A stretch of 64,000 nt of DNA, from assembly GCA_009695465.1 (NCBI GenBank), contig SIAW01000001.1, positions 7,092-71,091 of the forward strand. Reading direction: 5' to 3'. The position numbers were made by a program, and so were the translations under genes. The first letter of the stretch is position 1; each line of letters opens with the position of its first letter. The DNA is from Pedosphaera sp. GTDB taxonomy: Bacteria > Verrucomicrobiota > Verrucomicrobiia > Limisphaerales > UBA1100. Of the stretch, positions 1 through 36,044 are shown in pieces. The notes under the pieces are model-generated. The model was not told where the DNA came from, searched no databases, and saw only the letters and a program-made list of their open reading frames with translations.

Positions 1-3000
1 CGCGCAAAGACGAGACCGCCAAGCGCGACCTGCTGAACAAGGCCATCGAGGCCGCCGCCAAAAAGGCCGCGCAGGATGCGTTGGATGCGGCGGTGAAAGT
101 GCGCGTGCTGGCAGAGCAAGCCGTGCCGCCGGCCATGGTGGTGTTGAACACCGCGCAGACGGTGCTCAACCAAGTGGCGACTGAGGCCGATCAAACGCTC
201 AACGCGGCCATCGCCCAGAACACCAATCCGCTGGACAAACTGGCCTGCCGCTACGCGCTCAGCCGCGGGCTGTGGTTGACGATGAAGAACGAGGTCAACT
301 CGCTGGCCCACGCTCGCGCGGCGGTGCTGGAATTCCGCGGGGAAGACGCCCGAGTGCAGACGCTCAGCCACGATCTGTTGTGGCGGCAGCCGATGGGCGC
401 GCAATTCCAGCAGGACGCAGCGATGTTGCTGCGACTGCGGCAGGAACTGTTCACGACGACTGGGCATCTGAATTATCTGCCCAACTGGGTGGCGGAGGCC
501 GCCGCCAACAAGGAGCATAAAGACAAGGCGCAGTTCGTGGGCGCGGAAGTGGCCAAGCAAAACAACACGCCGCTTTTCCAAGTCGTCATCCGGCATCCCG
601 CCTACACCTCTGCGCCCAACGCCGCCATTCCCCTGCGCGAGACGGCGATGGCCGCCTTCAATGAACTCAGCAAAGAAACGCTGATGACGTTGGTGGGCGT
701 GCAGCGCGATGCGTTGATCCACAGCTCGGCCAAGCCGGATCCCGCGCGCGCCTTGGCGTTGGCCACCAAGTTTTATCAGCGCTTCCCGCAGGAACACACG
801 GGCGCGTACTGGCTGCTCGCGCAAAATCTGACCGACAAAACCAAGGTCGAAGCCAAGACGCACGCGCAGCTTCTCATGGCGTTGCCGCCCAAGCGCAATC
901 AAGAATTCTATCGCAGCCTGATGTCGGCGGCTGAGCTTAATCAGGATCCGGTCTTGGCGGCGCAGGTTTATGATTGGGCGGTCAAAGGCGGCATCACCAC
1001 GGTGTACAGCGATTACATCGGCGACGTGCTGTGGAAGCTCAATCTGAAACCGCAGGCGTTGGATTGGTGGAAGCGCGTCGTGGAGGCGCCCACGGAAGGT
1101 CAGGTCGCTTCCGAGCGCAACTGCGCGGAGCGGTACTACCGCAATACGCCGGCGGGGCCCGAGCCGTTCAATGAATTGGTGACGTACCGCTGGCCGGAAC
1201 TGCGCGTGCGCCTGGCCGCGCTGCAGCTCACCGATGTGCTGCGTCTGCAAGGCAACGTGCCGGCCTTTACCGATGGGGTGTTGAAACTGGAACTGCAGGC
1301 GAAGGAGACGCCGTTTGCCAACCAGGACTGGCGCGAGATTGCCGGTGTGTGGTGGGATTTCTCCGTGCAGAACGCCGCTCATGTGGCGAACAACAAGGAC
1401 TATAAAAAGCTGGAGCCACCCGCGCAGCAGAAGGTGTACGCGGCGATGCAGGATGTGATGTGCCGCGATTTTTCGTCCTACGCCACGTGCGAGGTGATGC
1501 TGGGGCACAACGCCACGGCCGCGCCGCTGGAGCCGCCGATGACCACGCTGCTGCGCCTCTCGCGCGCCACGCGCCAGACCTACAATGATCACAGCCGCTG
1601 GAATAGCCTGCGCAGTTACGCGCAGAGGGCGTTCGAGCAAAAGCGGTTTGTCGAGAGCGCCACGCTGCTCAGCGGCATGCTGGTGTATGTCAACAATGTG
1701 CCCAAGGAAGTGTCGGAGGAAGGTCGCAAGGCGGTGTTGCGCGCCCACACGCGGATGGGCGCGGTGGGATTGACGATTGATGAGAGCAGCCCGATGGCGC
1801 CGCTCTTGCAGGCGACGCTCTACTTGCGCTTGGGCGACCGCGTGCGTGCGCTCGAACAGTTTCAGGCCAACGCAGCGCTCTTTGAAAAACATCGCACCGA
1901 TCTGCCGCCGGACTTCATCGAGTTCGCCTGCGAACATCTCATGGCCGGTGGCGGCGAAGAAAATCTGGCGCGCGTGGAGGACACGTTGCGCTCGTGGCTG
2001 GTGAAGTTTACCGACGCCGACAAACCTGAAAGCAAAGAGCAGACGGAGGACGCCAAGGCGCGCATCCAACTCATGCTCGCGCGCAGCTACATCCGCGGCC
2101 AGCGTTATGAGGTGGCCCGCGTGGAGTTCGCCACGGTGACCAATCGTTATGTGGGCACGCCGCACGTGATCGAGGCCAAGTTCGGCATCGGCGAGGCGTT
2201 CATGGCGCAGCGGATTTTCGATCAGGCAGCGCAGTCCTTCAAGGAGCTGGAAGAGAATCCGGATCTGAACATCTCCATCCGCGCGCAGTTCCTCATCGGT
2301 CTGCTCGCCTTTCGCCAGGAACAACGCGAAGAGGCGCGCGAGATTTTCCAGCGCATCTTGGAGCGCGTGCCCGATGTGGAACTGGCCAACCGCACGCTGT
2401 TCAGCCTGTCGGAGATTTACGGATTGGAGCAACGCTACTTGGAGCAGTTGAACCTGCTGCGCACCGTCGGCCGATTGGGCCAGCACAGCAAACGCCTGCA
2501 CACGCCGGGGCGCGCGCTGTCCTTCGTGGTGCACGACCGCGACCTGGGCGTGAGCCGCGGGCAAAATCGCATCCCAGTGATTGTCACCACCAAACCCGGC
2601 GGCGACAAAGAGACGGTGTTTCTGCAGAGCGCGGCGGGCGCGGGCAAAGGTTTGTTCCGCGGCGAGGTCGTGACGGTGCTGGGCGCGCCGGTGCCGGGCG
2701 ATGGGATTCTGCAACTCACCGGCAAGGACGTGATCGAGAGTGATTATCCAGCCGACTTCAAGGCGCAGTTCCGCACTGTGCCGCTTTCCGATGTGGAGAT
2801 TCGCATCGCTGACGATGGCGAATTCGCCGTGGCCAGCAGCGAGATCACCGACGAGGAAAAGGAGACGCTGACCCAGCGCTTGCGTCGCGAGCAGAAGCCC
2901 GATGATGACACCGACAAGCGCCGTTCGCAGGGGCGTCCGCAAAATCAGGTGAAGCCGGGCAACCGCATTTTCCTGCGCGTCAAAGACGCGGACCGCGACT

Positions 3001-6000
3001 TGAGCGATGACCTCGACAAGGTGTTGGTCAAGATGCAGTCCTCCAGTGGCGATCAGGTTCAGTTGGAATTAAAAGAGACCGGCCCGCACACGGGCATGTT
3101 CCTCGCGACCATCCCCACGGCGGAATTGCCGGCAGGCGCGTCCTCCACCGATTCGGCCATTGATCACAGCCCGTTGATGGCGATCGATCACAGCCGCGAC
3201 ACGTTTTGGCAAAGCCAACCCGACGGCGCCACGCCGAAATTCCTGACGGTGGACATGAAACATCTGCACGACGTTTCGCGCGTGCGCATCTCCACGCCCA
3301 ACCCCGCCGAGCACGCGCCCGTGCGCGGCACCTTGCAGGGCAGCCATGACGGCGTGTTTTGGTTCACACTGGCGGCGCAACCGGCGCAGCAAAGGGCGGA
3401 GTTGCCTGCCGCGCAGATCGGCGCGATGACCCAGCGCGTTTATACGGGCGATCATACCGCATATACAACGTGGGCGCAGATCGTGACGCTCGGCCGCACG
3501 GGCAAAGCGGTGAGCGAGAAAAACGCGACGGAGTTGGCGTGGCAAATCGAGCTGGGCCAGCCGGGGGCCAATCTGCCGCACGCTGTGTTGTGGCACGGCA
3601 AACTGGTGCAGCCGCAAGACGGCGCGATGCGATTGGAGATTGCGGGCGACAGAGTGGCGCTGGCGGTTGATGGAAAATTGGAACTGGCGCCGGCCGTCGG
3701 CCCCAAGTCGGCGGATGTGTGGTTGAAAGCGGGAGTGCACGACGTGGCCATCTTTGCGGCGTCCAAGACCGGACAGAAAGGCGGGAGCGCGTTGCGTGCG
3801 CGTTCCAATCTGAGCAACAGCCTGCCCAAGCCGGCGGCGTTCACGAAGGCGGACGTTGATCTGGTGGAGGCGGAGAAATTCTTTGCCACCGCCCCCGTGA
3901 AACCCGCACCCGCTGTAGTGGCGCCGGTCGTTGCCGATGTCCAAAAGCAACTGACCTTCACCAAGAAGACCGCCGCGTTTGGCCTCGTCGAGGGATCCAA
4001 CGCAACGGTGAAGTGGGTGGGCAACTGGTCTGATTTGGAGGACGCGGTGCAATGGAAATTTGCCGCAGCGCAGCCCGGTGTCTATGAGGTGTGGCTCAAT
4101 CTGGCGCACGCTGCGGGCGGTTCGCGGTTCCGTGCGCGCGTCGGCGATCAAGTGATTGAAGCGACGGCTCCCAGCACGGGCGCTTGGACGACTTTCCAAA
4201 GTCACAAGATTGGCGCGGTGCATGTGGAAGAGGCGGGCGAGAAAACGTTGGTGCTGTCGCCGGTGGATATGGCGGGCGGCCCGCTGATGGTTTTGGCGGG
4301 CATCGAACTGCGCCCGGCCATCGGCGCGACGGCGGTGCTGCGCGATCGCGCGTGGGAATTCTTTTTCGATCCGCTGACGCTGCGCTACGTGCGTTTGCAG
4401 GTGGACGAGTACGCGGGGGATTCGGTGGCCATCAATCATGTGGAAGTCCGCGGCCCGCTGTCGAGCGATGCGTTCATTCCCACCAAGGAAGATGTCAGCA
4501 AGCTGGCGAAGAACACTTCCTTGGAGATTGCGGGCGGCGACATCATCACCGCCAATTATACCGACGAGACGGCCGTGGCCACGCAAGGCGGCAGCCGCTT
4601 GCTGTCGGCGCAGCTCACCGCCACGTACAACAACGCGCAGGTGGTGCCGATCGGGTTTGATTTCAACCGCGACAACGCGGGCGCGGTGCAGCAGTCGCGC
4701 AAGGAATTGCTGCGCGTGGATCCGGGCGAGCGCGTGACCTTTGAGATCACGGATTACGATCTGGATCAGACCGATCAACGCGACACGGTGCCCGTCACCA
4801 TCTGGCTCAACGGCCAGAAGTGGGCAGACTTGAACGCGACGGAGACGGAGGAATTCTCCGGGATATTCCGCACCGAGGTCGATACCAGTGCCACGCCTGC
4901 GGCGGGCAAGATGATCGTGAAACTCGGTGACCGTATTTTCTGCCGCTACAGCGATGCGCAGAACACTTTCCCCGGACACACGGTGGATCGCGAAGGCATC
5001 GTGCTGGTGAACGAACCGACGGCCGCACGCATCCGCATCGTCGAGACGCGACTGCAGGCGCTGCCGCTCGGCGTGAAAGGAACGATGCCGCCGGTCTATC
5101 TGCCCGAGCTGGAGACACCGCCTGCGGATCTGATCGCTGCGGTGAATTATTTCGTGCCGCTCACCATCGAGGTGATTGATCCCGACGCGGCCAAGGACAG
5201 CCGCAGCGTGGTGAAGGTGCGACTGAACGCCGGGACGACCAACGTCGTCGATGTGCTTTGCGAACTCTCCACGCAGTTTGGCAAATTGCCGGACGCCGAG
5301 CCGGGGCAAGTCAATCCGGCGCTGTTGGCGGGCCGGTTCATCGGGCAAGTGCGCATGCAATTGGGCGGTGCGGATAGTCCGGCCAAATTGCCGCGCGCGT
5401 TGGGCGACACGCAGGCGATGATCGGTCGTGCTCGGACGCTCGATGAAAAAGAGGAAGGCTCCGATGAGAATGATCGGCTGCTGCTCACGGTACTTAACTT
5501 GACCGGCACGGCAATCGTCAGCGCAAGTTACACGGACGTTCGCCGTCCCGATGCCGCCACGGCGCAATTGGGTGCGCGCGCGCGACTGGCCACCGGCGGC
5601 ACGTTGGCAGTCACGGACGAAGGATACGACAAGGTCGTGGAGCTGCTGCATGTCGGCGAGAAGGTGTTTATTGTCGTCAACGATCCGGACCTCGACATCT
5701 CTGATGCGCGCGACAACGCGACGGTGGTGGTGCAGAGCGAGTCCGGCGAAAAGGAGACGGTGCAACTCGACGAAACGCTCAGTCACAGCGGCATGTTCAC
5801 GGCGGCGCTCACGTTGCGCGTGAAGGAAAAGCCGACGCCCGGCAATTTCAACGCGACCGCGAAAGAGGTGGAATGTTTCTTTGGCGACAAGCTGCAGATC
5901 CGTTACACCGACGTGGCCAGCGACAAGCCCGGCACCGAATCCATGATGGAACTGCCCGTGGCCATCGGCACCGATGGCATCGTGGCGGCGTTCAGCAAGG

Positions 6001-6812
6001 TGTTCGGCAATTCGCAACTGGCGGCACAGACGCAGTTTTTCGTCGCGGAAAGTTACTTCGAGATCTTCAAGAACAACCTGCGCTTGGAGCGCAAGGAGGA
6101 GTCGGAGAAGGCGTTGCTGGCCGGACGCCGCATCTTGAAGGAGATCATGGTGGATTATCCCGATCCCAAACATCTGCCGCGCATCGCGTATCTCTCCGGG
6201 CAGTTCTCGCAGGAGTTGAAGGACTGGAACGAGGCCGCCAATCACTACGCGCTCATCGTGCGGCAATATCCCACGCACACGCTGGCGGCCGATTCGCAGT
6301 ACAAGCTGGCGCAGTGTTACGAGGAGGCGGGCGATTTCGACCGTGCGCTGGAAGAGTACATCACGCTGGCGGCGACCTATCCCAAGAGTCCGCTGGTGCC
6401 CAACGTGATGATCCGCATCAACGAATATTTCTACAAGCGCAAGGAGTACACCATCGCCGCGAAGGTGGCGGAGAAATTCCTGGACCGTTTTGAGAGCCAC
6501 GAACACGCGCCGCGCATGGCCTTCCGCTGGGGGCAATGCCACTACAAGGACGATCAGTTCGCCAAGGCGGCGGCGGTGTTTGATCTCTTCGCCAAGAAAT
6601 TCCCCGATGACGCGCTGGCCTCGGAGTCGCTGTTCTGGGCGGGCGAAAGTTTCCGCATGTCCAACAACGTGCCGCTGGCCTTCCGCCGGTACAACCGTTG
6701 CCGCTGGGATTTCCCGGAGAGCGATGCCGCCAAGTATGCGCGTGGCCGTCTGGCCTTGCCGGAGTATATCGCGCAATTTGAGCGCGAAGCCGATTTGGAG
6801 AATAATAAATGA
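1..6812 (+). CDS. Giant (>2260 aa) envelope-associated TPR + beta-sandwich repeat protein with discoidin (F5/8 type C)-like and CBM-like modules and a CpoB/YbgF-like C-terminal TPR region. The 5' end is cut by the window edge.
   Basis: The frame of ORF 81..6812 stays open back to base 3 (RKDETAKRDLLNKAIEAAAKKAAQDA...), so the TTG at 81 is not the real start. Discoidin-like signatures: 'DTFWQSQPDGATPKFLTVDM..VSRVRISTPNP' and 'LRYVRLQVDEYAGDSVAINHVEVRG'. TPR-like helices occur at both ends, and the C-terminal ~250 aa resemble YbgF/CpoB TPRs. Codon usage matches the neighbouring genes. Confidence 0.85.
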   Translation, partial: RKDETAKRDLLNKAIEAAAKKAAQDALDAAVKVRVLAEQAVPPAMVVLNTAQTVLNQVATEADQTLNAAIAQNTNPLDKLACRYALSRGLWLTMKNEVNSLAHARAAVLEFRGEDARVQTLSHDLLWRQPMGAQFQQDAAMLLRLRQELFTTTGHLNYLPNWVAEAAANKEHKDKAQFVGAEVAKQNNTPLFQVVIRHPAYTSAPNAAIPLRETAMAAFNELSKETLMTLVGVQRDALIHSSAKPDPARALALATKFYQRFPQEHTGAYWLLAQNLTDKTKVEAKTHAQLLMALPPKRNQEFYRSLMSAAELNQDPVLAAQVYDWAVKGGITTVYSDYIGDVLWKLNLKPQALDWWKRVVEAPTEGQVASERNCAERYYRNTPAGPEPFNELVTYRWPELRVRLAALQLTDVLRLQGNVPAFTDGVLKLELQAKETPFANQDWREIAGVWWDFSVQNAAHVANNKDYKKLEPPAQQKVYAAMQDVMCRDFSSYATCEVMLGHNATAAPLEPPMTTLLRLSRATRQTYNDHSRWNSLRSYAQRAFEQKRFVESATLLSGMLVYVNNVPKEVSEEGRKAVLRAHTRMGAVGLTIDESSPMAPLLQATLYLRLGDRVRALEQFQANAALFEKHRTDLPPDFIEFACEHLMAGGGEENLARVEDTLRSWLVKFTDADKPESKEQTEDAKARIQLMLARSYIRGQRYEVARVEFATVTNRYVGTPHVIEAKFGIGEAFMAQRIFDQAAQSFKELEENPDLNISIRAQFLIGLLAFRQEQREEAREIFQRILERVPDVELANRTLFSLSEIYGLEQRYLEQLNLLRTVGRLGQHSKRLHTPGRALSFVVHDRDLGVSRGQNRIPVIVTTKPGGDKETVFLQSAAGAGKGLFRGEVVTVLGAPVPGDGILQLTGKDVIESDYPADFKAQFRTVPLSDVEIRIADDGEFAVASSEITDEEKETLTQRLRREQKPDDDTDKRRSQGRPQNQVKPGNRIFLRVKDADRDLSDDLDKVLVKMQSSSGDQVQLELKETGPHTGMFLATIPTAELPAGASSTDSAIDHSPLMAIDHSRDTFWQSQPDGATPKFLTVDMKHLHDVSRVRISTPNPAEHAPVRGTLQGSHDGVFWFTLAAQPAQQRAELPAAQIGAMTQRVYTGDHTAYTTWAQIVTLGRTGKAVSEKNATELAWQIELGQPGANLPHAVLWHGKLVQPQDGAMRLEIAGDRVALAVDGKLELAPAVGPKSADVWLKAGVHDVAIFAASKTGQKGGSALRARSNLSNSLPKPAAFTKADVDLVEAEKFFATAPVKPAPAVVAPVVADVQKQLTFTKKTAAFGLVEGSNATVKWVGNWSDLEDAVQWKFAAAQPGVYEVWLNLAHAAGGSRFRARVGDQVIEATAPSTGAWTTFQSHKIGAVHVEEAGEKTLVLSPVDMAGGPLMVLAGIELRPAIGATAVLRDRAWEFFFDPLTLRYVRLQVDEYAGDSVAINHVEVRGPLSSDAFIPTKEDVSKLAKNTSLEIAGGDIITANYTDETAVATQGGSRLLSAQLTATYNNAQVVPIGFDFNRDNAGAVQQSRKELLRVDPGERVTFEITDYDLDQTDQRDTVPVTIWLNGQKWADLNATETEEFSGIFRTEVDTSATPAAGKMIVKLGDRIFCRYSDAQNTFPGHTVDREGIVLVNEPTAARIRIVETRLQALPLGVKGTMPPVYLPELETPPADLIAAVNYFVPLTIEVIDPDAAKDSRSVVKVRLNAGTTNVVDVLCELSTQFGKLPDAEPGQVNPALLAGRFIGQVRMQLGGADSPAKLPRALGDTQAMIGRARTLDEKEEGSDENDRLLLTVLNLTGTAIVSASYTDVRRPDAATAQLGARARLATGGTLAVTDEGYDKVVELLHVGEKVFIVVNDPDLDISDARDNATVVVQSESGEKETVQLDETLSHSGMFTAALTLRVKEKPTPGNFNATAKEVECFFGDKLQIRYTDVASDKPGTESMMELPVAIGTDGIVAAFSKVFGNSQLAAQTQFFVAESYFEIFKNNLRLERKEESEKALLAGRRILKEIMVDYPDPKHLPRIAYLSGQFSQELKDWNEAANHYALIVRQYPTHTLAADSQYKLAQCYEEAGDFDRALEEYITLAATYPKSPLVPNVMIRINEYFYKRKEYTIAAKVAEKFLDRFESHEHAPRMAFRWGQCHYKDDQFAKAAAVFDLFAKKFPDDALASESLFWAGESFRMSNNVPLAFRRYNRCRWDFPESDAAKYARGRLALPEYIAQFEREADLENNK

Positions 6813-7807
6813 TTTCCACCCGCCGCGTTGCAACCAAACTGACATCGAACAAACCCATTCATCTGATGCGACTCTGTCTGCCGCTGGCCTGTCTCATTCT
6901 TAGCGGGCCGTTCCTCACGGCAGCGGTACCTGCCACCAAAGAAGTTCCGCCCGCGCCAGTGCCCGCAGCGGTGGGCAATGCGACGGGCAATGGAACAGGC
7001 AGCGCCACGACGCCATCCCCCGCCTCGCCTGCGACAGAAAAACCTGCGGAGGAAAAGGCCGCAGCGAAGGAGGAGAAGACATCGTGGGTCGGCGAGCTGA
7101 CCAATCGCGGGCTTCTGAAGTACATGTTTGACGGCGGCGAATTCATGTGGCCCATCCTCGTCTGCGGCATCCTCGCCATGGCGGTCATTCTCGAGCGCTG
7201 GCGCAGCCTGAAAATGTTGAACACCAACAACGACGCCCTGCGCCAGTCGGTGCTGGACGACCTGACGCACGACCGCTCGGAGCAGGCGCTGGAACGTTGC
7301 GACCGCGAGCGCGGGCCGGTCGCGGCCATCTTGGCCAATGGCCTGCGCAAGTACATCGTGCTGCGGCGGCTGGGTTACGATGCCGGGCGCATCGAGCAGC
7401 AGGTCGTGCAGAGCATGGAAAAATACGGCGTGCATGTGGTCGCCGCGATGGAACGGCACTTGCCGATCCTCGCCATCGTTTCCAGCGTGGCACCGATGAT
7501 CGGGTTTCTGGGAACCGTCGCGGGCATGATTGTTTCCTTCGACGACATCGTGCGGCTGGATCAAAGCGGCGGCGGCACGAACATCGTGACGGCGGCGGCC
7601 GCCGGCATCAAGATCGCCCTCTTGACGACGTGCTTCGGGCTGATCGTCGGCATCCCCGCATTCTCGGCGTACAACTATTTCACCAGCGTCATCAATGGCT
7701 TTGTGCTGGAAGTGGAGGAGACCGCATCGGAACTGATGGAGGCGGTCACCCTGCAACTCACGCTGCAAAAAGCGGAGACCGAGCCCACTCCCTCGCGCGA
7801 CCCATGA
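6809..7807 (+). CDS. exbB: MotA/TolQ/ExbB-family proton channel with an N-terminal signal peptide and a low-complexity periplasmic extension
   Basis: The C-terminal 230 aa show the typical ExbB/TolQ pattern (WPILVCGILAMAVILER..., PMIGFLGTVAGMI, GIKIALLTTCFGLIVGIPA). The ATG overlaps the upstream stop (ATGA at 6809-6812). An alternative start is M20 at 6866. Confidence 0.9.
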   Translation: MISTRRVATKLTSNKPIHLMRLCLPLACLILSGPFLTAAVPATKEVPPAPVPAAVGNATGNGTGSATTPSPASPATEKPAEEKAAAKEEKTSWVGELTNRGLLKYMFDGGEFMWPILVCGILAMAVILERWRSLKMLNTNNDALRQSVLDDLTHDRSEQALERCDRERGPVAAILANGLRKYIVLRRLGYDAGRIEQQVVQSMEKYGVHVVAAMERHLPILAIVSSVAPMIGFLGTVAGMIVSFDDIVRLDQSGGGTNIVTAAAAGIKIALLTTCFGLIVGIPAFSAYNYFTSVINGFVLEVEETASELMEAVTLQLTLQKAETEPTPSRDP

Positions 7808-8220
7808 AGCTGCGCCGACAAACCAAGTTGCTGATCGAGCCGCCGGCGGTCGCCACCGGCGACATCGCCTTCAATCTCATCGTGTTCTTTCTGGTCTGCG
7901 CCTCGATGGAACCCGATCAAGGCCGGCCGATGACCATTCCGCGGGCGGAGAAGGAAAGTCGCCAGCAGCAGACCAAACACATCGAGGTGGATCTCACGCG
8001 CACGGCTGTGTTCATGAACGGCAATCCGTTGACTGTGCCGCAGTTTGAAAAGCAGATCCGCACATCGCTCAGCGACAAGACGCGCGAGGAAGACCGCATC
8101 GTCGGTGTCAAATGCAAGCCCGACGTGGCGTATGCGCACTGGATGAACGTCAGCGCCGCCATCGAACAGGCCGGCGGCATCGTCACCCTCGTGCGCGAGG
8201 AACGCATCAACGTGCAATAA
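7804..8220 (+). CDS. exbD: ExbD/TolR-family protein (copy 1)
   Basis: 138 aa. N-terminal 'DIAFNLIVFFLV' TM helix and ExbD-like periplasmic domain. ATGA overlap with the exbB stop at 7804-7807. Only the downstream part of track ORF 7147..8220 is used. Confidence 0.88.
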   Translation: MKLRRQTKLLIEPPAVATGDIAFNLIVFFLVCASMEPDQGRPMTIPRAEKESRQQQTKHIEVDLTRTAVFMNGNPLTVPQFEKQIRTSLSDKTREEDRIVGVKCKPDVAYAHWMNVSAAIEQAGGIVTLVREERINVQ

Positions 8221-8222
8221 AC

Positions 8223-8651
8223 ATGGCGCTCCCCCGACGCAAACACATCGCCGAAGTGCCCTCCGTGGCGATGGGCGACATCGCGTTTCTCCTGCTGATC
8301 TTCTTCGTGATCCTGGCCCGTGCCCGCGACGACAGCCATATCCAGTGGGTGCCCGCGACTGGGGCCGACCTTTCCAAGCCCGCCACCATGCGCGTCAGCG
8401 TGTCGATTGACCGCGACAACGTCACCTATCTCAACGGGCAAAAGATTTCGCACGAACAACTCGGGCCAGCCCTCTGGAATCCTGAAGGGCTGAAGGACAA
8501 GGGGCTTCTCTACAACGTGCCGGCGGGCAAACGCACCGTGCTGCTGAAAATCCACAAGGATGCCACCGCGCTATTCTTCGAGCCGGTCATCGAAGCCGTC
8601 AGCGGCGCGGGCGGCGAACTCCATCACGTGTTGGAAGACACGAAGAAATGA
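8223..8651 (+). CDS. exbD: ExbD/TolR-family protein (copy 2)
   Basis: 142 aa. 'MGDIAFLLLIFFVIL' TM helix followed by an ExbD-like domain. It starts 2 nt after the previous stop. Confidence 0.88.
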   Translation: MALPRRKHIAEVPSVAMGDIAFLLLIFFVILARARDDSHIQWVPATGADLSKPATMRVSVSIDRDNVTYLNGQKISHEQLGPALWNPEGLKDKGLLYNVPAGKRTVLLKIHKDATALFFEPVIEAVSGAGGELHHVLEDTKK

Positions 8652-9319
8652 CCGGCCACAACCCATCCCATCCCATGCAACTCTACGTTCTGAAAAATGG
8701 CGAAACACTAGGCCCGCTCGAGATGGAGGAAGCGCGCCAACTGCTGGCCACCGGCAAGCTCCTGCCCACCGACTCCGCCTGCCATGAAGGCGCCAATGAA
8801 TGGGTGCCCCTATCCAGCCTCGCGGGCATTGCATCGTCACCAAAGAGCAAGCCGACCCTCACCCCGAAATTGAAGGACCCAGCGCCCGAAGTTGCGGGCA
8901 TGCCATCACTCATGAATTTCTCACGCGACATCAAACAGGTCAAAGGCAACACCGCCGTCACCGCCGCGCAGTTGCGGGAATTCCTGCGCGAGCTGCGCGG
9001 GCGGTCGCCGCGCGAAATGCTCGGCGCCATTGCGCAGAGCACGTTGGTCCATGGCACGCTGGTCTCCACCGCCTTTTTCGTCGTGGTCTTCGCGGTGTCG
9101 GCAGCGTTGACCAGCCCCACAGCGGCGCCCAAAAAAAAGGCCAAGCCCGCCGTTGAAAGCGCGACCACCGGCGCCGTGACACCGCCAGCGACGACGACAC
9201 AGGCACTGAAGAAAAAGGACATCACCGACGTGCTGGGTGTGGGCGATCAAAAAGCGGGCAAGCCCAAAGAGATCAACCCATTCGAGAGCAAGGAAGATTT
9301 GCTCAAGGGCACTCCCTAG
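8648..9319 (+). CDS. GYF_2 (DUF4339)-domain single-pass membrane protein with a Lys/Pro/Thr-rich periplasmic tail
   Basis: N-terminal 'YVLKNGETLGPLEMEEARQLLATGKLLPTDSACHEGANEWVPLSSL' fits the GYF_2 pattern. One TM helix (LVSTAFFVVVFAVSAALT). Tail 'AAPKKKAKPAVE..TPPATTTQALKKK'. ATGA overlap with the upstream stop at 8648-8651. Confidence 0.75.
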   Translation: MTGHNPSHPMQLYVLKNGETLGPLEMEEARQLLATGKLLPTDSACHEGANEWVPLSSLAGIASSPKSKPTLTPKLKDPAPEVAGMPSLMNFSRDIKQVKGNTAVTAAQLREFLRELRGRSPREMLGAIAQSTLVHGTLVSTAFFVVVFAVSAALTSPTAAPKKKAKPAVESATTGAVTPPATTTQALKKKDITDVLGVGDQKAGKPKEINPFESKEDLLKGTP

Positions 9320-9320
9320 T

Positions 9321-11333
9321 ATGCAGCAACGCCTCGGCCAATTTTTAGACTTCGGCTTGCGGCATTTCTATTGGGGTTGGGGAGCAGTGGTGCTGGCGTT
9401 CTGGGCGTGGCTTGCCGCCGATGCGTTGGGCAAAAAGCATCTGCCGGTTTGGCTGTCACAATGGCTGGGAGCCGCGTTGCTCGCGGCGCAGATCCTCCTC
9501 CTCGTGACGCTGCGCAGCAAAGTTTCTGCGCGCGGAGGATTCGCCGCCTTGCCCGTGCGCGCGCGCAACACATGGCTGGCACTGGCAGCGATGCCATTCA
9601 TTATGGCGTGCGGTGTCGCGTGGAGTTTCCTTTGGTACGCCAAGCAGACCAGTGGCGGCGATATTCCACCGCACATCTATTGGGGCAGTTTTATTTTTGG
9701 AGCGATCACGCCGCTCGCACTGTTGCTGGGCATTCGCTGGCTGCGCGATGAACTGCACTGGCCGCAGTGGTCGTCGTGGGCGCTGGCATCGGTGGCGCTA
9801 CTGCCGCTGTGGCAACTGCTGCTTCATGCGATGGAAGGGGGCGGGCCAAGTCCATTGCGCGCCACCGTGGGTTGGGGCGGCGGGCTGGTAATTTTTCTGG
9901 TGGGCATGCTGTGGACGATCTGGATTGTGGACATGCGAACGCGGTTGCGCGAGGAGCAGCAGCGCGGCATCGTCGCTGCACTGGGCGACGCGCCATCTTC
10001 GCGAAGCTTTGCGGTGACATTTACGTTGGCGCTGTGCCTGGGTTTCGCCGGTGCGGATCGCTTCTATGTGAGGCGATGGATTTTGGCGGCGCTCAAATGC
10101 CTCGCCGGCGTGGGCTCGGTGTTTGCGGCGCGGGAAATTCCAGCGCCGTGGGGCGGGGTGCTCATCGGCATCGGTGTCAGTTGGTGGCTGGCCGATCTCT
10201 TCCTGTTGACCGCTGGAAAATACGTCGGCGAAAATGGACGGCGCGTGCTGAGCCAATCTTGGAAACGGGAGCAGCGGTCGGCTATCAGCCCGTTGGCGGC
10301 GATGGATCATTCATCCATCCCAGCGGATAAACACGCGGCCAGCCCGTTTGATTTGAACGCGTGGTACTACGGCGCCCACAATCAGAAGCTCAAACAATCG
10401 TTCGGCGCGCTCTCCACCTACAGCCTGCTTTTCTTGGGCATCCTGATGGCGCTCTCCAATCTGACGGGATGCCAGCAGATCTATGAATTGCCGGCCGGCG
10501 GCGGGAAGGCGCAGATGCCGCAGAAGGTGCAGGTGATCAAGCAGATCATCCGCAAAAAATTTGTCGTCAATCCGTTCAGCTCAATCCTGTTCAATCCGCC
10601 GCCCATCGAGCAGGTGAAATTGCGGTTGGAACAGTTGACGCAGCATGTTTACAAGGCCGGCCAAGGCGAGGGACAGAACGCGGGTTTTGCCGGCGGCACG
10701 GGCCAGGGGATGGTGCGGTTCATCCGCCTGCGCTATGCCGATGGCGATTGGGACCAGGACTTGGAGCTGAACTCCGATCTCAACATGCTCATCTGGTACG
10801 CGGCCAACACCGGGCACAAGACCGCGCCGAAACCGGAGGTCATGAGCATCGCGCAGTTGCGCAGCTTCCCGGTCGGCAAAAGTCCGCCGCTGGTGTATAT
10901 CACCGGGCAGCGCAATCTCCCGTTGACCCCGCTGGAGATCGAGACGTTGCGCGACTATCTGCTGGAGAAACGCGGCATGCTCTTCGCCGACAACGGCGGC
11001 AGCAGCGGTTGGCACAGCCAATTCTTCAGCATGATGCACCAAGTGTTGCAGCGCGTGGAGCCGCGGCCGGTGCCGTTGGATCATCCCATCCACGCGGGGC
11101 TGGGTTCCATCCCCATTGTCGCGCCGCACGGCGGCAGCACCGCCTATGGATGGATGGTTGATGGCCGGCTGGTGGCGTATTATCATCCTGGCGATATCGG
11201 AGACGCTTGGGCCGATGGCCATGCGGGAGTGAATCTGGGAATTTGGGAAGCAAGCTACCGGCTCGGCGGCAACGTGATGCTTTACGCGCACGCCGAGTAT
11301 AGCAAGTGGCTGCAGGCACAAAGGAAAAAATGA
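9321..11333 (+). CDS. Polytopic membrane protein with a TM2-like segment and a C-terminal DUF4159 domain
   Basis: The ATG at 9321 lies 1 nt after the upstream stop. Several TM helices, including a TM2-like 'GADRFYVRRWILAALKCLAG'. The C-terminal 'IRLRYADGDWDQD...PPLVYITGQRNLPLTPLEIETLRDYLLEKRGMLFADNGG' matches my recollection of DUF4159. Confidence 0.8.
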   Translation: MQQRLGQFLDFGLRHFYWGWGAVVLAFWAWLAADALGKKHLPVWLSQWLGAALLAAQILLLVTLRSKVSARGGFAALPVRARNTWLALAAMPFIMACGVAWSFLWYAKQTSGGDIPPHIYWGSFIFGAITPLALLLGIRWLRDELHWPQWSSWALASVALLPLWQLLLHAMEGGGPSPLRATVGWGGGLVIFLVGMLWTIWIVDMRTRLREEQQRGIVAALGDAPSSRSFAVTFTLALCLGFAGADRFYVRRWILAALKCLAGVGSVFAAREIPAPWGGVLIGIGVSWWLADLFLLTAGKYVGENGRRVLSQSWKREQRSAISPLAAMDHSSIPADKHAASPFDLNAWYYGAHNQKLKQSFGALSTYSLLFLGILMALSNLTGCQQIYELPAGGGKAQMPQKVQVIKQIIRKKFVVNPFSSILFNPPPIEQVKLRLEQLTQHVYKAGQGEGQNAGFAGGTGQGMVRFIRLRYADGDWDQDLELNSDLNMLIWYAANTGHKTAPKPEVMSIAQLRSFPVGKSPPLVYITGQRNLPLTPLEIETLRDYLLEKRGMLFADNGGSSGWHSQFFSMMHQVLQRVEPRPVPLDHPIHAGLGSIPIVAPHGGSTAYGWMVDGRLVAYYHPGDIGDAWADGHAGVNLGIWEASYRLGGNVMLYAHAEYSKWLQAQRKK

Positions 11334-12934
11334 AACGCACTGGACTGGCGATCATCTTGGCGGCGGCAGGGACAGCGATGGCTGCGCCGCTGACTTATCT
11401 GGAGCAGATCCCTGTCGAGACCTTTGCCAAGATGCGCGAGGCCGAGCGCTACCAGTTGAAGGTCGCCGAGAAGTTTTTCATCACCGGCGAATACAAGGCT
11501 GCTGCCTCGGAGTACGAAAAGTTCATGACCTTGTACGACCGCAGCGTCGGCGCGCCCAACGCGCAGTTGATGTGGAGCCATTGCATGGTGCATCAACGCA
11601 AGGTGTACGGCGCCGTCAAAGACGGGTTCCAGTCCGTCATTGATTACTGGCCCGGCTCGCACGAGGCCATGCTCGCGTCCTATCTCATCGGCAAATCCTA
11701 CAACGACATTGGCGAGACGCAGAACGCGGAGAAGGCTTATGCGCGCGTCATCGCCGCGCATCCCACCCATCACGTGGCGGTGTTGGCCAAATGGGATTTG
11801 GCGGACATCTACCGCGTGCGCGCCGACGCGGCCAATCGCGCGAAGATGTGGGAGGACATCGCCTTCAACGCCAAGCGCGACACGCTCAATAATCATTACA
11901 CCCTCTACTCCAGCCGCTACTTGGCCGAGCATCATTTTATGGCGGGCAATTTTGCCGACGGATTGAAATCGCTGCAGACCACTTACAAGGACTTTGGGCT
12001 GGTCAACGCCGCGCACGAAATCGCAATCAGCCCCATCTACACGCTCTCGGGCAACAAGGAGAAAGCCGCGCTGGGATTGAAAGTAGCCGATGACGCCAAT
12101 CAATTTATCCGCTCGCAGGTGCCCGCCGCTACGGATGACGCCGCCATGCAACGCATCCGCGTCTGCTATTATCACATCGCCAGTCTGCACAGCCATGCGC
12201 GCCGCGATAAGGAGGGCTTGGACACCTACGAACAGTTGAGCAAGCTCATCGGCTTGGACGACGGCATCCGCAGCAAGATCGGTCTGTGGCATCAAGCCCG
12301 CGCCCGCTACGAGGAAGCGCGCAAGGTCTATGCCCAATTCAAGGATCCCATCGCCGGACTGCAGGCCACCGCCCTCTCCTTCCGCGAGGAACAGAAATAC
12401 GATCAAGCCGTTGCGGTGTATAACCAGCTCGTCGGCTCGGCAAAAGATCGCGAGGGCGAATGGCACGTGCAGATCGTCACCACATGGCGGCAGGCGCACA
12501 AATGGGACAACGCCGTCGTGGCCTATCAGGCGCTGCTGAAGTCCGTCCCGGAACGTTTCGGCGATTGGTACTGGGGCATGGCCGAATGCTACGAGGCCGC
12601 CGGCAAGCAGAACGAAGCCATCCAGACTTTCCGCCAGTCCGATAAATATCCCGGCGCGTACTTCCGCATGGCCCAGTGTCATCGCCGGCTTAAACAGCAC
12701 AGCGAGGCGCTCGTGCTCTACAACCAGGCGCGCACCGAACCCAGCACCGCGCCCGATGCCTCGTTGCAGATCGGCTACACTTACGAAGAGGCTGGCCAGA
12801 TGGAAAACGCCATCAAATGGTTTCAGCAGACCTGCAAGTTGCACCCCAAATCCAATCAGGCCAGCACGGCCCACGCCCATCTGCAGACCAAGTACAAGAT
12901 CAGCGTCACGCTCGGCGGCGCCGCTGATAAATAA
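11330..12934 (+). CDS. Secreted TPR-repeat protein
   Basis: Signal peptide MKRTGLAIILAAAGTAMAAP, followed by TPR-like helical repeats throughout. ATGA overlap with the upstream stop at 11330-11333. Confidence 0.85.
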   Translation: MKRTGLAIILAAAGTAMAAPLTYLEQIPVETFAKMREAERYQLKVAEKFFITGEYKAAASEYEKFMTLYDRSVGAPNAQLMWSHCMVHQRKVYGAVKDGFQSVIDYWPGSHEAMLASYLIGKSYNDIGETQNAEKAYARVIAAHPTHHVAVLAKWDLADIYRVRADAANRAKMWEDIAFNAKRDTLNNHYTLYSSRYLAEHHFMAGNFADGLKSLQTTYKDFGLVNAAHEIAISPIYTLSGNKEKAALGLKVADDANQFIRSQVPAATDDAAMQRIRVCYYHIASLHSHARRDKEGLDTYEQLSKLIGLDDGIRSKIGLWHQARARYEEARKVYAQFKDPIAGLQATALSFREEQKYDQAVAVYNQLVGSAKDREGEWHVQIVTTWRQAHKWDNAVVAYQALLKSVPERFGDWYWGMAECYEAAGKQNEAIQTFRQSDKYPGAYFRMAQCHRRLKQHSEALVLYNQARTEPSTAPDASLQIGYTYEEAGQMENAIKWFQQTCKLHPKSNQASTAHAHLQTKYKISVTLGGAADK

Positions 12935-34148: not shown

Positions 34149-34167
34149 CGAGACGCGCGCGGTGCCG

Positions 34168-35922: not shown

Positions 35923-36044
35923 GTAGCTATGGCTTTTCAACGGCCAACATGCGGCCGATGTTTGCTGTCTGTGTAACGGCCGCAGATTGTGCGGTGGCCG
36001 AACCGGAGTGTCGAACCCAAAAGCGGGCCAGCCTCATCGCGGGT

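What the first reader, a model, noticed from the sequence alone, without database searches (positions are those of the whole stretch)
1..12934. ExbB-ExbD-ExbD motor embedded in a seven-gene, translationally coupled operon without TonB/TolA, headed by a >2260-aa TPR/discoidin protein
Every junction is an overlap or nearly one. ATGA overlaps occur at 6809-6812, 7804-7807, 8648-8651 and 11330-11333, with 2-nt and 1-nt spacers at 8220/8223 and 9319/9321. This implies a stoichiometric complex. The proton-channel and stator parts are clear, but the window has no TonB C-terminal domain, TolA, TolB or Pal. The partners instead are a giant protein whose C-terminus looks like CpoB/YbgF, a GYF membrane protein, a TM2+DUF4159 protein and a secreted TPR protein. 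Inference: a PMF-energised envelope machine using a non-canonical force transducer and a very large periplasmic or surface scaffold with carbohydrate-binding-type modules.
Basis: partly seen in the sequence, partly recalled or inferred. Interest (0 to 1): 0.7.

Follow-up and report, generated by a model that had tools for sequence, protein, structure and literature searches.

The report
PVC-wide ExbBD motor with TPR scaffold
This is a tightly conserved eight-gene operon of Verrucomicrobia and Planctomycetes that joins a proton-driven ExbB/ExbD-type membrane motor to unusual partners instead of TonB or TolA, so it probably powers an uncharacterised process in the cell envelope of these bacteria.

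Summary
All six junctions and all domain calls were verified, and no TonB, TolA, TolB or Pal is in the cluster or upstream of it.

Two corrections:
- The operon has eight genes, not seven. A 799-aa CpoB-like TPR/beta-sandwich protein ends 13 nt before the giant gene, which is 2648 aa in full and has a signal peptide.
- The GYF and TM2 domains are lineage-specific add-ons, not conserved parts.

The order TPR800–giant–ExbB–ExbD1–ExbD2–small protein–DUF4159 protein–TPR534 was colinear in 67 of 67 related loci with at least five recognisable genes. These come from Verrucomicrobiota, Planctomycetota and one Omnitrophota MAG.

The conserved partners are:
- a TonB-topology protein of 130–270 aa that ends in a roughly 25-residue conserved peptide and never carries a globular domain;
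- a polytopic protein with a periplasmic DUF4159 domain (glutamine-amidotransferase-like fold, not vWA);
- three secreted proteins built from CpoB/YbgF-type TPR modules.

Best reading: a proton-driven, Tol/Agl-Glt/MUL1-like machine spanning the envelope, with a non-canonical force transducer. Its output is unknown; envelope organisation and macromolecule uptake are the two main candidates. I found no paper describing it. It is a new variant of a known kind.

The parts
3..6812 (+). C-terminal 2269 of 2648 residues of the giant secreted protein. It has a long helical/TPR N-terminal part, arrays of beta-sandwich domains with DxDxD-type motifs, and a CpoB/YbgF-type TPR C-terminus.
   Evidence: The reading frame is open from base 3. 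Full length and signal peptide come from the identical contigs L001 and L008. Pfam TPR families match. tol_pal_ybgF scores 122 bits against a cut-off of 90. It is paralogous to the upstream TPR800, which aligns to giant residues 1050-1560 and 2302-2588.
3138..3401 (+). F5/8 type C (discoidin, NedA-like galactose-binding) module inside the giant protein.
   Evidence: PF00754 at E = 4.5e-7 and PF22633 at E = 9.5e-7, on window residues 1046-1133.
4017..4265 (+). DUF5077-like beta module inside the giant protein. The match is weak and below the Pfam cut-off.
   Evidence: PF16871 at E = 7e-5, 23.3 bits against a cut-off of 24.6.
6186..6755 (+). CpoB/YbgF/BamD-type TPR module at the C-terminus of the giant protein.
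   Evidence: TPR_6, TPR_19 and YfiO hits on window residues 2062-2251. TIGR02795 is above its cut-off.
6809..7807 (+). ExbB/TolQ-type proton-channel subunit, 332 aa. It has a non-conserved N-terminal signal-like extension.
   Evidence: PF01618 at E = 1e-23. Best NCBIfam hit is tolQ at 98 bits, below the equivalog cut-off of 221. PDB TolQ and ExbB match at about E = 6e-11. The GFLGTV and LLTTxFGLxVGIPA motifs are conserved in 68 homologues.
7804..8220 (+). ExbD/TolR paralogue 1, 138 aa.
   Evidence: PF02472 at E = 1e-15. The transmembrane Asp in the sDIAF motif is kept in at least 90% of 69 homologues.
8223..8651 (+). ExbD/TolR paralogue 2, 142 aa, only 28% identical to paralogue 1.
   Evidence: PF02472 at E = 1e-11. 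The transmembrane Asp in the MGDIAF motif is kept in at least 90% of 73 homologues.
8648..9319 (+). Small bitopic protein, 223 aa. From N to C it has a lineage-specific cytosolic GYF_2 domain (8684-8824), a conserved cytosolic motif ELREFLxxxRGRSPxEMLGxIAQS, one transmembrane helix (about 9038-9112), an Ala/Pro/Lys-rich linker and a conserved C-terminal peptide (about 9218-9310). It is the candidate TonB/TolA-like transducer without a globular C-terminal domain.
   Evidence: The family has 288 representatives, the 150 listed being 79-269 aa long, none with an extra domain. GYF is present in 5 of 50 members.
9321..11333 (+). Polytopic membrane protein, 670 aa. It has a variable N-terminal transmembrane region with a lineage-specific TM2 domain (9999-10118). 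Next come a conserved cytosolic NPLDxxAWYYG motif and a last transmembrane helix ending in an invariant lipobox-like L[STAG]GC (Cys at 10470-10472). A linker of about 75 aa leads to a periplasmic DUF4159 domain (10716-11288).
   Evidence: The model of the C-terminal part matches PDB 4i66, a DUF4159 structure (TM 0.77, E = 1e-8), and then a glutamine-amidotransferase domain, with no vWA hit. The topology is my own inference from the positive-inside rule applied to P0039.
11330..12934 (+). Secreted TPR protein, 534 aa, with signal peptide MKRTGLAIILAAAGTAMA. It has CpoB/YbgF-like TPRs near the N-terminus and further TPRs at the C-terminus. It is the last conserved gene of the cluster.
   Evidence: tol_pal_ybgF scores 82.5 bits, just under the cut-off of 90.1. 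The gene is present directly downstream in 62 of 67 loci. The next genes differ between relatives.

Best explanation
This is a conserved eight-gene operon of the PVC bacteria (Planctomycetes, Verrucomicrobia and relatives). It encodes a proton-driven machine that spans the inner membrane and the periplasm.

The motor. ExbB forms the channel, by analogy a pentamer. The two different ExbD proteins form the central pair, like AglQ/AglS of Myxococcus.

The membrane-anchored partners. Two conserved proteins reach from the membrane into the periplasm.
- A small protein with TonB/TolA topology: a cytosolic motif, one transmembrane helix and a flexible Ala/Pro/Lys-rich linker. It ends in a short conserved peptide instead of a globular domain.
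- A polytopic protein whose last helix tethers a DUF4159 domain in the periplasm.

The secreted proteins. There are three: TPR800, the 2648-aa giant and TPR534. They are built from CpoB/YbgF-type TPR modules and beta-sandwich domains, and the giant carries a discoidin module. They form the periplasmic scaffold.

Proposed mechanism (inferred, not shown). Proton flow through ExbB/ExbD moves the anchored partners. The C-terminal peptide of the small protein docks in a TPR groove of the scaffold. The motor's work is thereby passed to the scaffold, which acts on the peptidoglycan, the outer membrane or a bound glycan.

Physiological output. I rate general envelope organisation, as a functional stand-in for or companion of Tol-Pal, slightly more likely (about 0.4). 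Energised capture or uptake of macromolecules comes next (about 0.3).
For: Shown:
- The motor genes are intact and their key residues are conserved.
- The eight genes keep their order in 67 of 67 loci with at least five recognisable genes. The loci come from Verrucomicrobiota, Planctomycetota and one Omnitrophota MAG. Each gene is present in 88-98% of loci long enough to hold it. Database gene calls agree.
- Cross-phylum identity is unusually high: 55-60% for the DUF4159 part and about 55% for TPR800.
- The small-protein family has 288 representatives; the 150 listed are 79-269 aa long. It has conserved cytosolic and C-terminal motifs and never a globular domain.
- The DUF4159 domain is predicted to be periplasmic and has an alpha/beta fold like 4i66.
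- All three TPR proteins have signal peptides and CpoB/YbgF-type TPRs.
- The TPR800 model is confident, with mean pLDDT 81 and a TPR-beta-beta-TPR layout.

Precedents from papers:
- AglR5QS with GltG/GltJ and the periplasmic TPR proteins GltD/E/C (PMC11761067).
- TPR-tolQ-tolR-tolR-transducer loci in PVC bacteria (PMC12204202).
- The Akkermansia mul1A TPR gene, which lies beside ExbB and ExbD genes and is needed for mucin use.
- Fibrobacter TPR-TPR-ExbB-ExbD-ExbD-TonB.
- Planctomycetes have a much reduced Tol-Pal system and no pal.
Against: - No physical interaction, transcript or phenotype was examined. The complex is inferred from synteny alone.
- No outer-membrane component (beta-barrel, lipoprotein or OmpA-like domain) is encoded in the cluster, so the point of action is unknown.
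- The transmembrane helix of the small protein lacks the conserved His of the SHLS motif through which TonB and TolA bind their motors.
- ExbB lacks the acidic residue aligned with the Glu of the E. coli TolQ motif GIAEAL.
- Docking of the peptide into a TPR groove is pure inference.
- Canonical Tol-Pal clusters are reported sporadically in Verrucomicrobia, so this cluster cannot simply replace Tol-Pal there.
Confidence: 0.62

Rival explanations
1. Macromolecule or glycan uptake machine, like Akkermansia MUL1 or a TonB system. The discoidin-bearing giant scaffold captures polysaccharide or glycoprotein. [quoted passage not shown]
For: - The giant protein has F5/8 type C and DUF5077-like modules.
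- In the same phylum, Amuc_0544 (mul1A) is called a mucin transport gene. It is a 121-kDa COG1729 TPR protein lying next to ExbD and MotA/TolQ/ExbB genes.
- In Fibrobacter, the TPR-TPR-ExbB-ExbD-ExbD-TonB cluster is induced on cellulose, and its TPR proteins sit in a complex with cellulases.
- Verrucomicrobia accumulate glycans in the periplasm (PMC13174399).
Against: - The cluster has no outer-membrane channel and no TonB-dependent transporter.
- No CAZyme or sulfatase genes are consistently nearby; the flanking genes differ between relatives.
- Sequence conservation across two phyla is very high, which is unlike substrate-specific uptake loci.
- MUL1 has a different gene content, with no giant protein and no DUF4159. 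It is also reported to be absent from aquatic Akkermansiaceae, where the present cluster does occur.
Confidence: 0.3
2. Surface-motility or surface-transport machine homologous to Myxococcus Agl-Glt/Nfs. The motor would move adhesins or polymers along the cell surface.
For: - The layout of one ExbB and two different ExbD proteins matches AglR/AglQ/AglS.
- It has two membrane-anchored partners, like GltG and GltJ, and periplasmic TPR proteins, like GltD/E/C.
- In this lineage the small protein carries a cytosolic GYF domain, as GltJ does.
Against: - The NCBIfam GltJ model gives only 17 bits against a cut-off of 450, and only over the GYF region.
- GYF is missing in 45 of 50 family members.
- There is no TonB-CTD-like domain.
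- No Glt outer-membrane barrels and no MglA/AglZ-type genes are nearby.
- No other Agl/Glt NCBIfam model was hit.
Confidence: 0.07
3. An ordinary ExbB-ExbD pair that serves a TonB or TolA encoded elsewhere. The neighbouring genes would be functionally unrelated passengers.
For: Unlinked tonB genes are common in bacteria (general knowledge). The rest of this genome could not be searched. Verrucomicrobia are reported to have TonB.
Against: - Colinearity in 67 of 67 loci across at least two phyla, with overlapping stop and start codons in this lineage, is not expected for unrelated neighbours.
- The small protein and the DUF4159 protein always follow the two ExbD genes.
- Planctomycetes are not among the phyla with detected TonB and lack pal, yet they keep the whole cluster.
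Confidence: 0.08

Closest known systems
Tol-Pal system (tolQ-tolR-tolA-tolB-pal-cpoB)
   Same: - It uses a TolQ/TolR-type motor. NCBIfam scores this ExbB highest against tolQ and ExbD1 only against tolR.
- The motor genes are followed by a bitopic protein with a periplasmic linker.
- The cluster ends in a CpoB/YbgF-type TPR protein, and CpoB-type TPR modules are present in all three secreted proteins.
- It is a conserved, housekeeping-like gene set.
   Different: - There are two different TolR-like subunits.
- There is no TolA C-terminal domain and no conserved SHLS histidine.
- There is no TolB beta-propeller and no Pal/OmpA-like lipoprotein.
- Instead there are a DUF4159 membrane protein and about 4000 residues of TPR/beta-sandwich scaffold.
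Myxococcus xanthus Agl-Glt gliding machinery (AglR5-AglQ-AglS with GltG/GltJ and GltC/D/E)
   Same: - It has a heteromeric pair of TolR-like subunits in one TolQ-like channel.
- It has two membrane-anchored proteins with disordered periplasmic segments.
- It has large periplasmic TPR proteins.
- GltJ carries a cytosolic GYF domain, like the small protein in this window.
   Different: - There is no sequence-level membership.
- It has no TonB-CTD-like domains, FHA domain or zinc ribbon.
- It has no outer-membrane Glt proteins.
- GYF is not conserved in the family.
vWA-type motor-driven force transducer loci of PVC and other bacteria (Mol Biol Evol 2025, PMC12204202)
   Same: - The layout is a TPR gene, then a tolQ-like gene, then two heterologous tolR-like genes, then membrane-anchored candidate transducers.
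- They occur in Planctomycetes and Verrucomicrobia.
- The Tichowtungia locus also has two transducers.
   Different: - Those transducers have the SHLS motif, a linker of about 100 residues and a vWA (YfbK-like) C-terminal domain.
- Here one partner has no globular domain at all.
- The other carries DUF4159, with a glutamine-amidotransferase-like fold and no vWA match in Pfam or Foldseek.
- DUF4159 appears neither in that paper's supplementary files nor in any searchable paper other than a Pfam database article.
Akkermansia muciniphila mucin utilization locus 1 (mul1A = Amuc_0544)
   Same: - It is from the same phylum.
- It has a secreted COG1729 (CpoB/YbgF-type) TPR protein encoded beside ExbD and MotA/TolQ/ExbB genes.
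- It is the only such module with a genetic phenotype: mucin use and gut colonisation.
   Different: - The TPR protein is much smaller, at 121 kDa, with a 37-kDa partner.
- Its annotated neighbours (Amuc_0543 and Amuc_0546 to Amuc_0549) include no DUF4159 protein and no giant protein, and the gene order differs.
- It is reported to be absent from aquatic Akkermansiaceae.
- Orthology could not be tested because no A. muciniphila sequences were available to me.
Fibrobacter succinogenes FSU_2396-2403 (OmpA-TPR-TPR-...-ExbB-ExbD-ExbD-TonB)
   Same: Two TPR genes are followed by ExbB and two ExbD genes and then a membrane-anchored transducer. The TPR proteins form envelope complexes.
   Different: The Fibrobacter cluster has a TonB-family protein and an OmpA-family protein. 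It has no DUF4159 protein and no giant discoidin protein.
Campylobacter flagellar-motor periplasmic scaffold (TPR proteins holding MotAB stators)
   Same: A periplasmic TPR scaffold is associated with a motor of the MotA/ExbB family. It is the third-best Foldseek match of the TPR800 model, PDB 9hmf chain K at E = 2.6e-6.
   Different: The resemblance is generic to TPR folds (TM about 0.2). The present cluster has no flagellar genes.

Membership tests
TonB-ExbB-ExbD energy transduction system | ExbB (MotA_ExbB family) and ExbD proteins encoded together | tested here: met
   PF01618 and two PF02472 matches are above their gathering scores. The transmembrane Asp and the channel Thr/Pro motifs are conserved.
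TonB-ExbB-ExbD energy transduction system | A TonB protein: N-terminal transmembrane helix with SHLS motif, Pro-rich linker and TonB C-terminal domain | tested here: not met
   No cluster protein or neighbour within 10 kb upstream has a TonB_C hit. The small protein has TonB topology but no C-terminal domain; the 150 listed members of its 288-member family are at most 269 aa. His is not conserved in its helix.
TonB-ExbB-ExbD energy transduction system | A cognate TonB-dependent outer-membrane transporter | tested here: not met
   None appears among the called genes, with their Pfam lists, of eight examined loci. The rest of the genome could not be searched.
Tol-Pal system | TolQ and TolR orthologues | tested here: inconclusive
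   The best NCBIfam hits are tolQ at 98 bits (cut-off 221) and tolR at 27 bits (cut-off 127). PDB TolQ and ExbB score equally.
Tol-Pal system | TolA, TolB (beta-propeller) and Pal (OmpA-like lipoprotein) | tested here: not met
   No PD40, TolA or OmpA domains are in the cluster. A PD40 protein occurs only in a separate neighbouring cluster of one Opitutae MAG.
Tol-Pal system | CpoB/YbgF-type TPR protein | tested here: met
   TIGR02795 scores 109.5 bits in TPR800 and 122 bits in the giant protein, both above the cut-off of 90.1. It scores 82.5 bits in TPR534. These are domain-level matches inside much larger proteins.
Agl-Glt gliding machinery | One TolQ-like and two different TolR-like subunits | tested here: met
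   ExbD1 and ExbD2 are 28% identical and both are conserved across phyla. This is a match of architecture only.
Agl-Glt gliding machinery | GltJ/GltG-type partners (ZnR+GYF or FHA, transmembrane helix, TonB-CTD-like domain) and Glt periplasmic and outer-membrane proteins | tested here: not met
   The GltJ model gives 17 bits against a cut-off of 450, over the GYF region only. No other Glt/Agl NCBIfam model was hit. GYF is present in 5 of 50 family members.
vWA-type force-transducer loci (PMC12204202) | TPR gene + tolQ-like + two heterologous tolR-like genes | tested here: met
   compared with the description.
vWA-type force-transducer loci (PMC12204202) | Transducer with an SHLS transmembrane helix and a vWA C-terminal domain | tested here: not met
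   There are no VWA Pfam hits. The Foldseek top hits of the C-terminal domain model are DUF4159 (4i66) and a glutamine-amidotransferase domain, with no vWA among the top 50. There is no conserved His in either candidate helix.
Akkermansia MUL1 | Orthology to Amuc_0543 through Amuc_0548 | not testable with these tools
   No A. muciniphila sequences could be retrieved. Gene products and sizes from published tables differ from this cluster. A. muciniphila is not among the 120 listed hits of an Akkermansiaceae DUF4159 query.
Bat (aerotolerance) operon | MoxR ATPase, DUF58 and vWA BatA/BatB proteins | tested here: not met
   None is in the cluster. The only trace is a weak BatC-like TPR similarity (E = 4e-4 to 8e-4).
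Zorya or other motor-based anti-phage defence | ZorA/ZorB-type or other PADLOC models | tested here: not met
   PADLOC gave no hit for six cluster proteins.

The most novel reading that the evidence does not exclude
PVC bacteria use a third kind of periplasmic force transduction. Its transducer has no globular head. A short conserved C-terminal peptide on a flexible tether plugs into the groove of a CpoB-like TPR scaffold, and a second tethered DUF4159 domain assists it. This machine would stand in for Tol-Pal, and perhaps TonB, in Planctomycetes, which lack pal. It would power a PVC-specific envelope process such as shaping the enlarged periplasm or pulling macromolecules into it.
Probability: 0.25. 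Interest if true: 0.8.

Novelty: new variant of a known kind. Interest (0 to 1): 0.6.

Why it matters
Planctomycetes and many Verrucomicrobia have unusual envelopes. Planctomycetes have no Pal and a much reduced Tol system, and they take large molecules into an enlarged periplasm. What energises processes at their outer membrane is not known.

This cluster is one of the most conserved motor-containing gene sets in these phyla. It is found in at least 410 species genomes, and cross-phylum identity is about 55-60% for TPR800 and the DUF4159 part. Its partners have no described function: DUF4159 appears in no searchable paper apart from a Pfam database article.

The cluster offers a concrete, genetically testable candidate for that missing energy coupling. 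It could also widen the known repertoire of force transducers that work with 5:2 proton motors.

Tried and rejected
- **Akkermansia MUL1.** I recalled MUL1 (Amuc_0543-0550) as possibly the same eight-gene cluster. Published tables show otherwise. Amuc_0544 is a 121-kDa TPR protein, Amuc_0543 is 37 kDa, Amuc_0546 is ExbD, Amuc_0548 is ExbB and Amuc_0549 is endonuclease III. MUL1 is therefore a smaller related module, not this cluster. The Davey 2023 paper and the 2025 Akkermansia review are not held.
- **A. muciniphila orthologue.** A protein search with an Akkermansiaceae DUF4159 query listed only environmental Akkermansiaceae and Haloferula among its best 120 hits.
- **vWA transducer.** The idea that the DUF4159 protein is the published vWA transducer is rejected by the fold search.
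- **PSCyt2/PSD1 and DUF1501 genes.** I asked whether the pair upstream belongs to the operon. It is adjacent in the window species and in Phycisphaera, is 3.5 kb away behind opposite-strand genes in one planctomycete, and is absent in another. It is not part of the conserved core, and the family is highly paralogous.
- **Planctopirus limnophila essentiality.** Paralogue tables show that 1 of 5 ExbB genes, 1 of 3 genes in one ExbD group and 1 of the 2 hypothetical genes Plim_3134/Plim_3759 are essential. The per-gene table is cut off, so I could not tell which locus is the orthologue.
- **Beta-sandwich domains.** The Foldseek search with the TPR800 model was dominated by generic TPR hits and did not identify these domains.
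- **Promoters and terminators.** Scans inside the window gave no more matches than shuffled sequence.
- **Defence systems.** PADLOC gave no hit.
- **ExbD1 in the PDB.** A sequence search gave nothing at E <= 0.01.

Full report
**What is in the window.** Seven genes lie head to tail on the + strand between bases 3 and 12934. The giant ORF is open from base 3 to its stop at 6812. The others are ExbB (6809-7807), ExbD1 (7804-8220), ExbD2 (8223-8651), a 223-aa GYF/TM protein (8648-9319), a 670-aa TM2+DUF4159 protein (9321-11333) and a 534-aa secreted TPR protein (11330-12934). All domain calls hold in Pfam above gathering scores. The giant's C-terminus passes the NCBIfam tol_pal_ybgF cut-off. No TonB_C, TolA, PD40/TolB or OmpA/Pal domain is present. 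Identical contigs from several independent assemblies carry the same genes.

**What the window cuts off.** Identical contigs (L001, L008, L009) show that the giant protein is 2648 aa long and has a Sec signal peptide. Thirteen nt upstream of it ends another gene, a 799-aa secreted protein that I call TPR800 (P0121). A confident model of TPR800 (mean pLDDT 81) has a TPR domain, two beta-sandwich domains with disordered Pro-rich inserts, and a second TPR domain. Its TPRs are CpoB/YbgF-type, scoring 109.5 bits against a cut-off of 90.1. TPR800 aligns to two stretches of the giant protein, residues 1050-1560 and 2302-2588, so the giant looks like an expanded paralogue.

Upstream of TPR800 there is a 187-nt gap with one sigma-70-like match (10 of 12 positions; 0.1 expected by chance). 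Beyond it lie a DUF1501 gene and a PSCyt2/PSD1 gene. That pair is also adjacent in a Phycisphaera MAG. In one planctomycete chromosome it is separated from the cluster by opposite-strand genes, and in another it is absent. I therefore do not count it as part of the core. No tonB or tolA lies upstream in any of these.

**Conservation.** I scanned one genome per species with the conserved C-terminal half of the DUF4159 protein. The scan found relatives in 410 species genomes. The 80 best loci come from Verrucomicrobiales, Akkermansiaceae, Luteolibacter, Haloferula, Prosthecobacter, Roseibacillus, Opitutae, Planctomycetaceae, Pirellulaceae, Phycisphaeraceae and one Omnitrophota MAG. The closest is a Verrucomicrobiales MAG at 89% identity, so the window is verrucomicrobial.

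I then searched the six-frame ORFs of these loci with the window proteins. Presence in loci long enough to hold each gene was:

| Gene | Present / loci |
|---|---|
| Giant | 54 / 59 |
| ExbB | 62 / 63 |
| ExbD1 | 67 / 69 |
| ExbD2 | 67 / 69 |
| Small protein | 66 / 72 |
| TPR534 | 62 / 67 |

Order was colinear in 67 of 67 loci with at least five of the genes. Independent database gene calls show the same order in a related verrucomicrobium, in Phycisphaera and in large planctomycete contigs. The genes downstream of TPR534 differ between relatives, so the epimerase gene at 12987 is not part of the cluster. In Planctomycetes the intergenic gaps are 37-273 nt, so the tight overlaps are a lineage trait.

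**The motor.** ExbB scores best against tolQ in NCBIfam (98 bits) but below the equivalog cut-off, and it matches solved TolQ and ExbB structures equally well. The channel motifs GFLGTV and LLTTxFGLxVGIPA are conserved in 68 homologues. The position aligned with the Glu of the E. coli TolQ motif GIAEAL is hydrophobic. ExbD1 and ExbD2 are only 28% identical. Each has its own cross-phylum consensus, and both keep the transmembrane Asp. A heteromeric ExbD pair inside one ExbB ring, as modelled for AglQ/AglS in AglR5, is the natural reading. It was not shown here.

**The two membrane-anchored partners.**

*The small protein.* The family was searched exhaustively with the GYF-less core. It has 288 representative clusters; the 150 best listed are 79-269 aa long, and none has a further domain. 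An alignment of 50 members shows these conserved features:
- a cytosolic motif, ELREFLxxMRGRSPxEMLGxVAxS;
- one transmembrane helix;
- a low-complexity Ala/Pro/Lys linker;
- a C-terminal motif, LGxGExKxAPxxxNPLExxxDDLLK.

Only 5 of the 50 carry GYF_2. This is the topology of TonB and TolA without the head domain. It also lacks the conserved His of the SHLS motif.

*The DUF4159 protein.* It has a variable polytopic N-terminal part. TM2 occurs in this lineage, DUF805 in others, and some homologues reach 1044 aa. The conserved core has:
- a cytosolic NPLDxDAWYYG motif;
- a last transmembrane helix ending in an invariant, lipobox-like L[STAG]GC;
- the motif EIYExPAGGG;
- a basic linker of about 75 residues modelled with low confidence;
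- the DUF4159 domain.

Applying the positive-inside rule to the 481-aa Phycisphaera homologue gives five helices, with the N-terminus inside and the domain in the periplasm. This is my own inference. The domain model matches the DUF4159 crystal structure 4i66 (TM 0.77) and then a glutamine-amidotransferase domain, but no vWA structure. The only invariant Cys lies at the membrane boundary, so the domain has no amidotransferase-type nucleophile.

**Comparison with known systems.**
- It is not a Ton system: there is no TonB and no transporter.
- It is not Tol-Pal: there is no TolA, TolB or Pal. It does share the motor type, the layout of a motor followed by a bitopic protein and ending in a TPR protein, and CpoB-type TPRs.
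- It resembles Agl-Glt in architecture: a heteromeric stator pair, two anchored partners, periplasmic TPR proteins and, in this lineage, a GYF domain as in GltJ. It fails the sequence tests.
- A 2025 paper describes TPR-tolQ-tolR-tolR loci in PVC bacteria whose transducers carry an SHLS helix and a vWA head. The present cluster has the same front half but different partners.
- In Akkermansia, mul1A (Amuc_0544) is a 121-kDa COG1729 TPR protein. It lies beside ExbD and ExbB genes and is needed for mucin use. That is a smaller related module, not this cluster.
- Fibrobacter has a TPR-TPR-ExbB-ExbD-ExbD-TonB cluster linked to cellulose degradation.
- PADLOC gives no defence hit, and Bat-operon components are absent.
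- The term DUF4159 occurs in one searchable paper only, a Pfam database article.

**How it probably works.** Shown: a conserved, apparently functional proton-channel motor is always encoded with two periplasm-reaching membrane proteins and three secreted CpoB-like TPR proteins. Inferred: these form one machine. Proton flow drives the ExbD pair. The anchored partners are moved or tensioned. The C-terminal peptide of the small protein docks into a TPR groove, so that work is delivered to the scaffold.

The output is unknown. Three points favour a general envelope role (about 0.4):
- very high conservation across two phyla;
- the lack of linked substrate-specific genes;
- the reduced Tol-Pal system and missing pal of Planctomycetes.

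The discoidin module and the MUL1 and Fibrobacter precedents favour macromolecule capture or uptake (about 0.3). A gliding-type function or service to an unlinked TonB is less likely.

**Verdict.** It is an eight-gene, PVC-wide cluster with a non-canonical partner set. It belongs to the known kind of proton-motor-driven trans-envelope systems, but it is a variant I could not find described. No experiment bears on it directly.

Noticed in passing
L086:12550-20720 (minus strand), an Opitutae MAG: A second, different motor cluster lies directly beside the conserved cluster. It consists of a TPR protein (825 aa), ExbB (278 aa), a single ExbD (138 aa) and a 1302-aa protein with TolB-like PD40 repeats plus a prenyltransferase-like alpha/alpha toroid.
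   Followed up: partly
window:15085-19087 (minus strand) and L008:2474-5863: PSCyt/PSD1 (DUF1549/DUF1553) and DUF1501 gene pairs flank the cluster on both sides in this species. The same pair is adjacent upstream in Phycisphaera, is 3.5 kb away in one planctomycete and is absent in another. It may be chance, because these families are highly paralogous.
   Followed up: partly
window:10461-10472: An invariant Cys sits in a lipobox-like L[STAG]GC at the periplasmic end of the last transmembrane helix of the DUF4159 protein. It is internal to a polytopic protein, not in an N-terminal signal peptide. Its role is unexplained.
   Followed up: no
window:7583-7600 (ExbB transmembrane helix 3): The residue aligned with the Glu of the E. 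coli TolQ motif GIAEAL is Ile here, and it is hydrophobic in most of 68 homologues. The Thr and Pro channel residues are kept.
   Followed up: partly
window:33264-35940 (minus strand): A fusion of DUF116 with a polyprenyl synthetase (34171-35940) lies next to a protein with a prenyltransferase alpha/alpha-toroid domain (33264-34670). This may be an isoprenoid-related pair.
   Followed up: no
window:22614-24773 (+): A fusion of an acyltransferase with an AMP-binding enzyme (an Aas-like architecture) is followed by an ABC exporter on the opposite strand, at 24795-26612.
   Followed up: no
window:59297-63946 (minus strand): A 1549-aa ORF near the end of the window was not examined.
   Followed up: no
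Planctopirus limnophila loci Plim_3131-3134, Plim_3759-3762 and Plim_3805-3807 (supplement of PMC10632474): P. limnophila has three ExbB-ExbD-ExbD modules, and two of them are followed by paralogous hypothetical genes (Plim_3134 and Plim_3759). In the Tn-seq paralogue tables, 1 of 5 ExbB genes, 1 of 3 genes in one ExbD group and 1 of the 2 hypotheticals are essential. I could not tell which locus is the orthologue of this cluster.
   Followed up: partly
DUF4159 domain, window:10716-11288: There are many invariant His and Asp residues (for example in YYHPGDIGDAWxDxHxG and GDWxQD) in a domain with no conserved Cys. They could form a metal or ligand site, but I did not test this.
   Followed up: no
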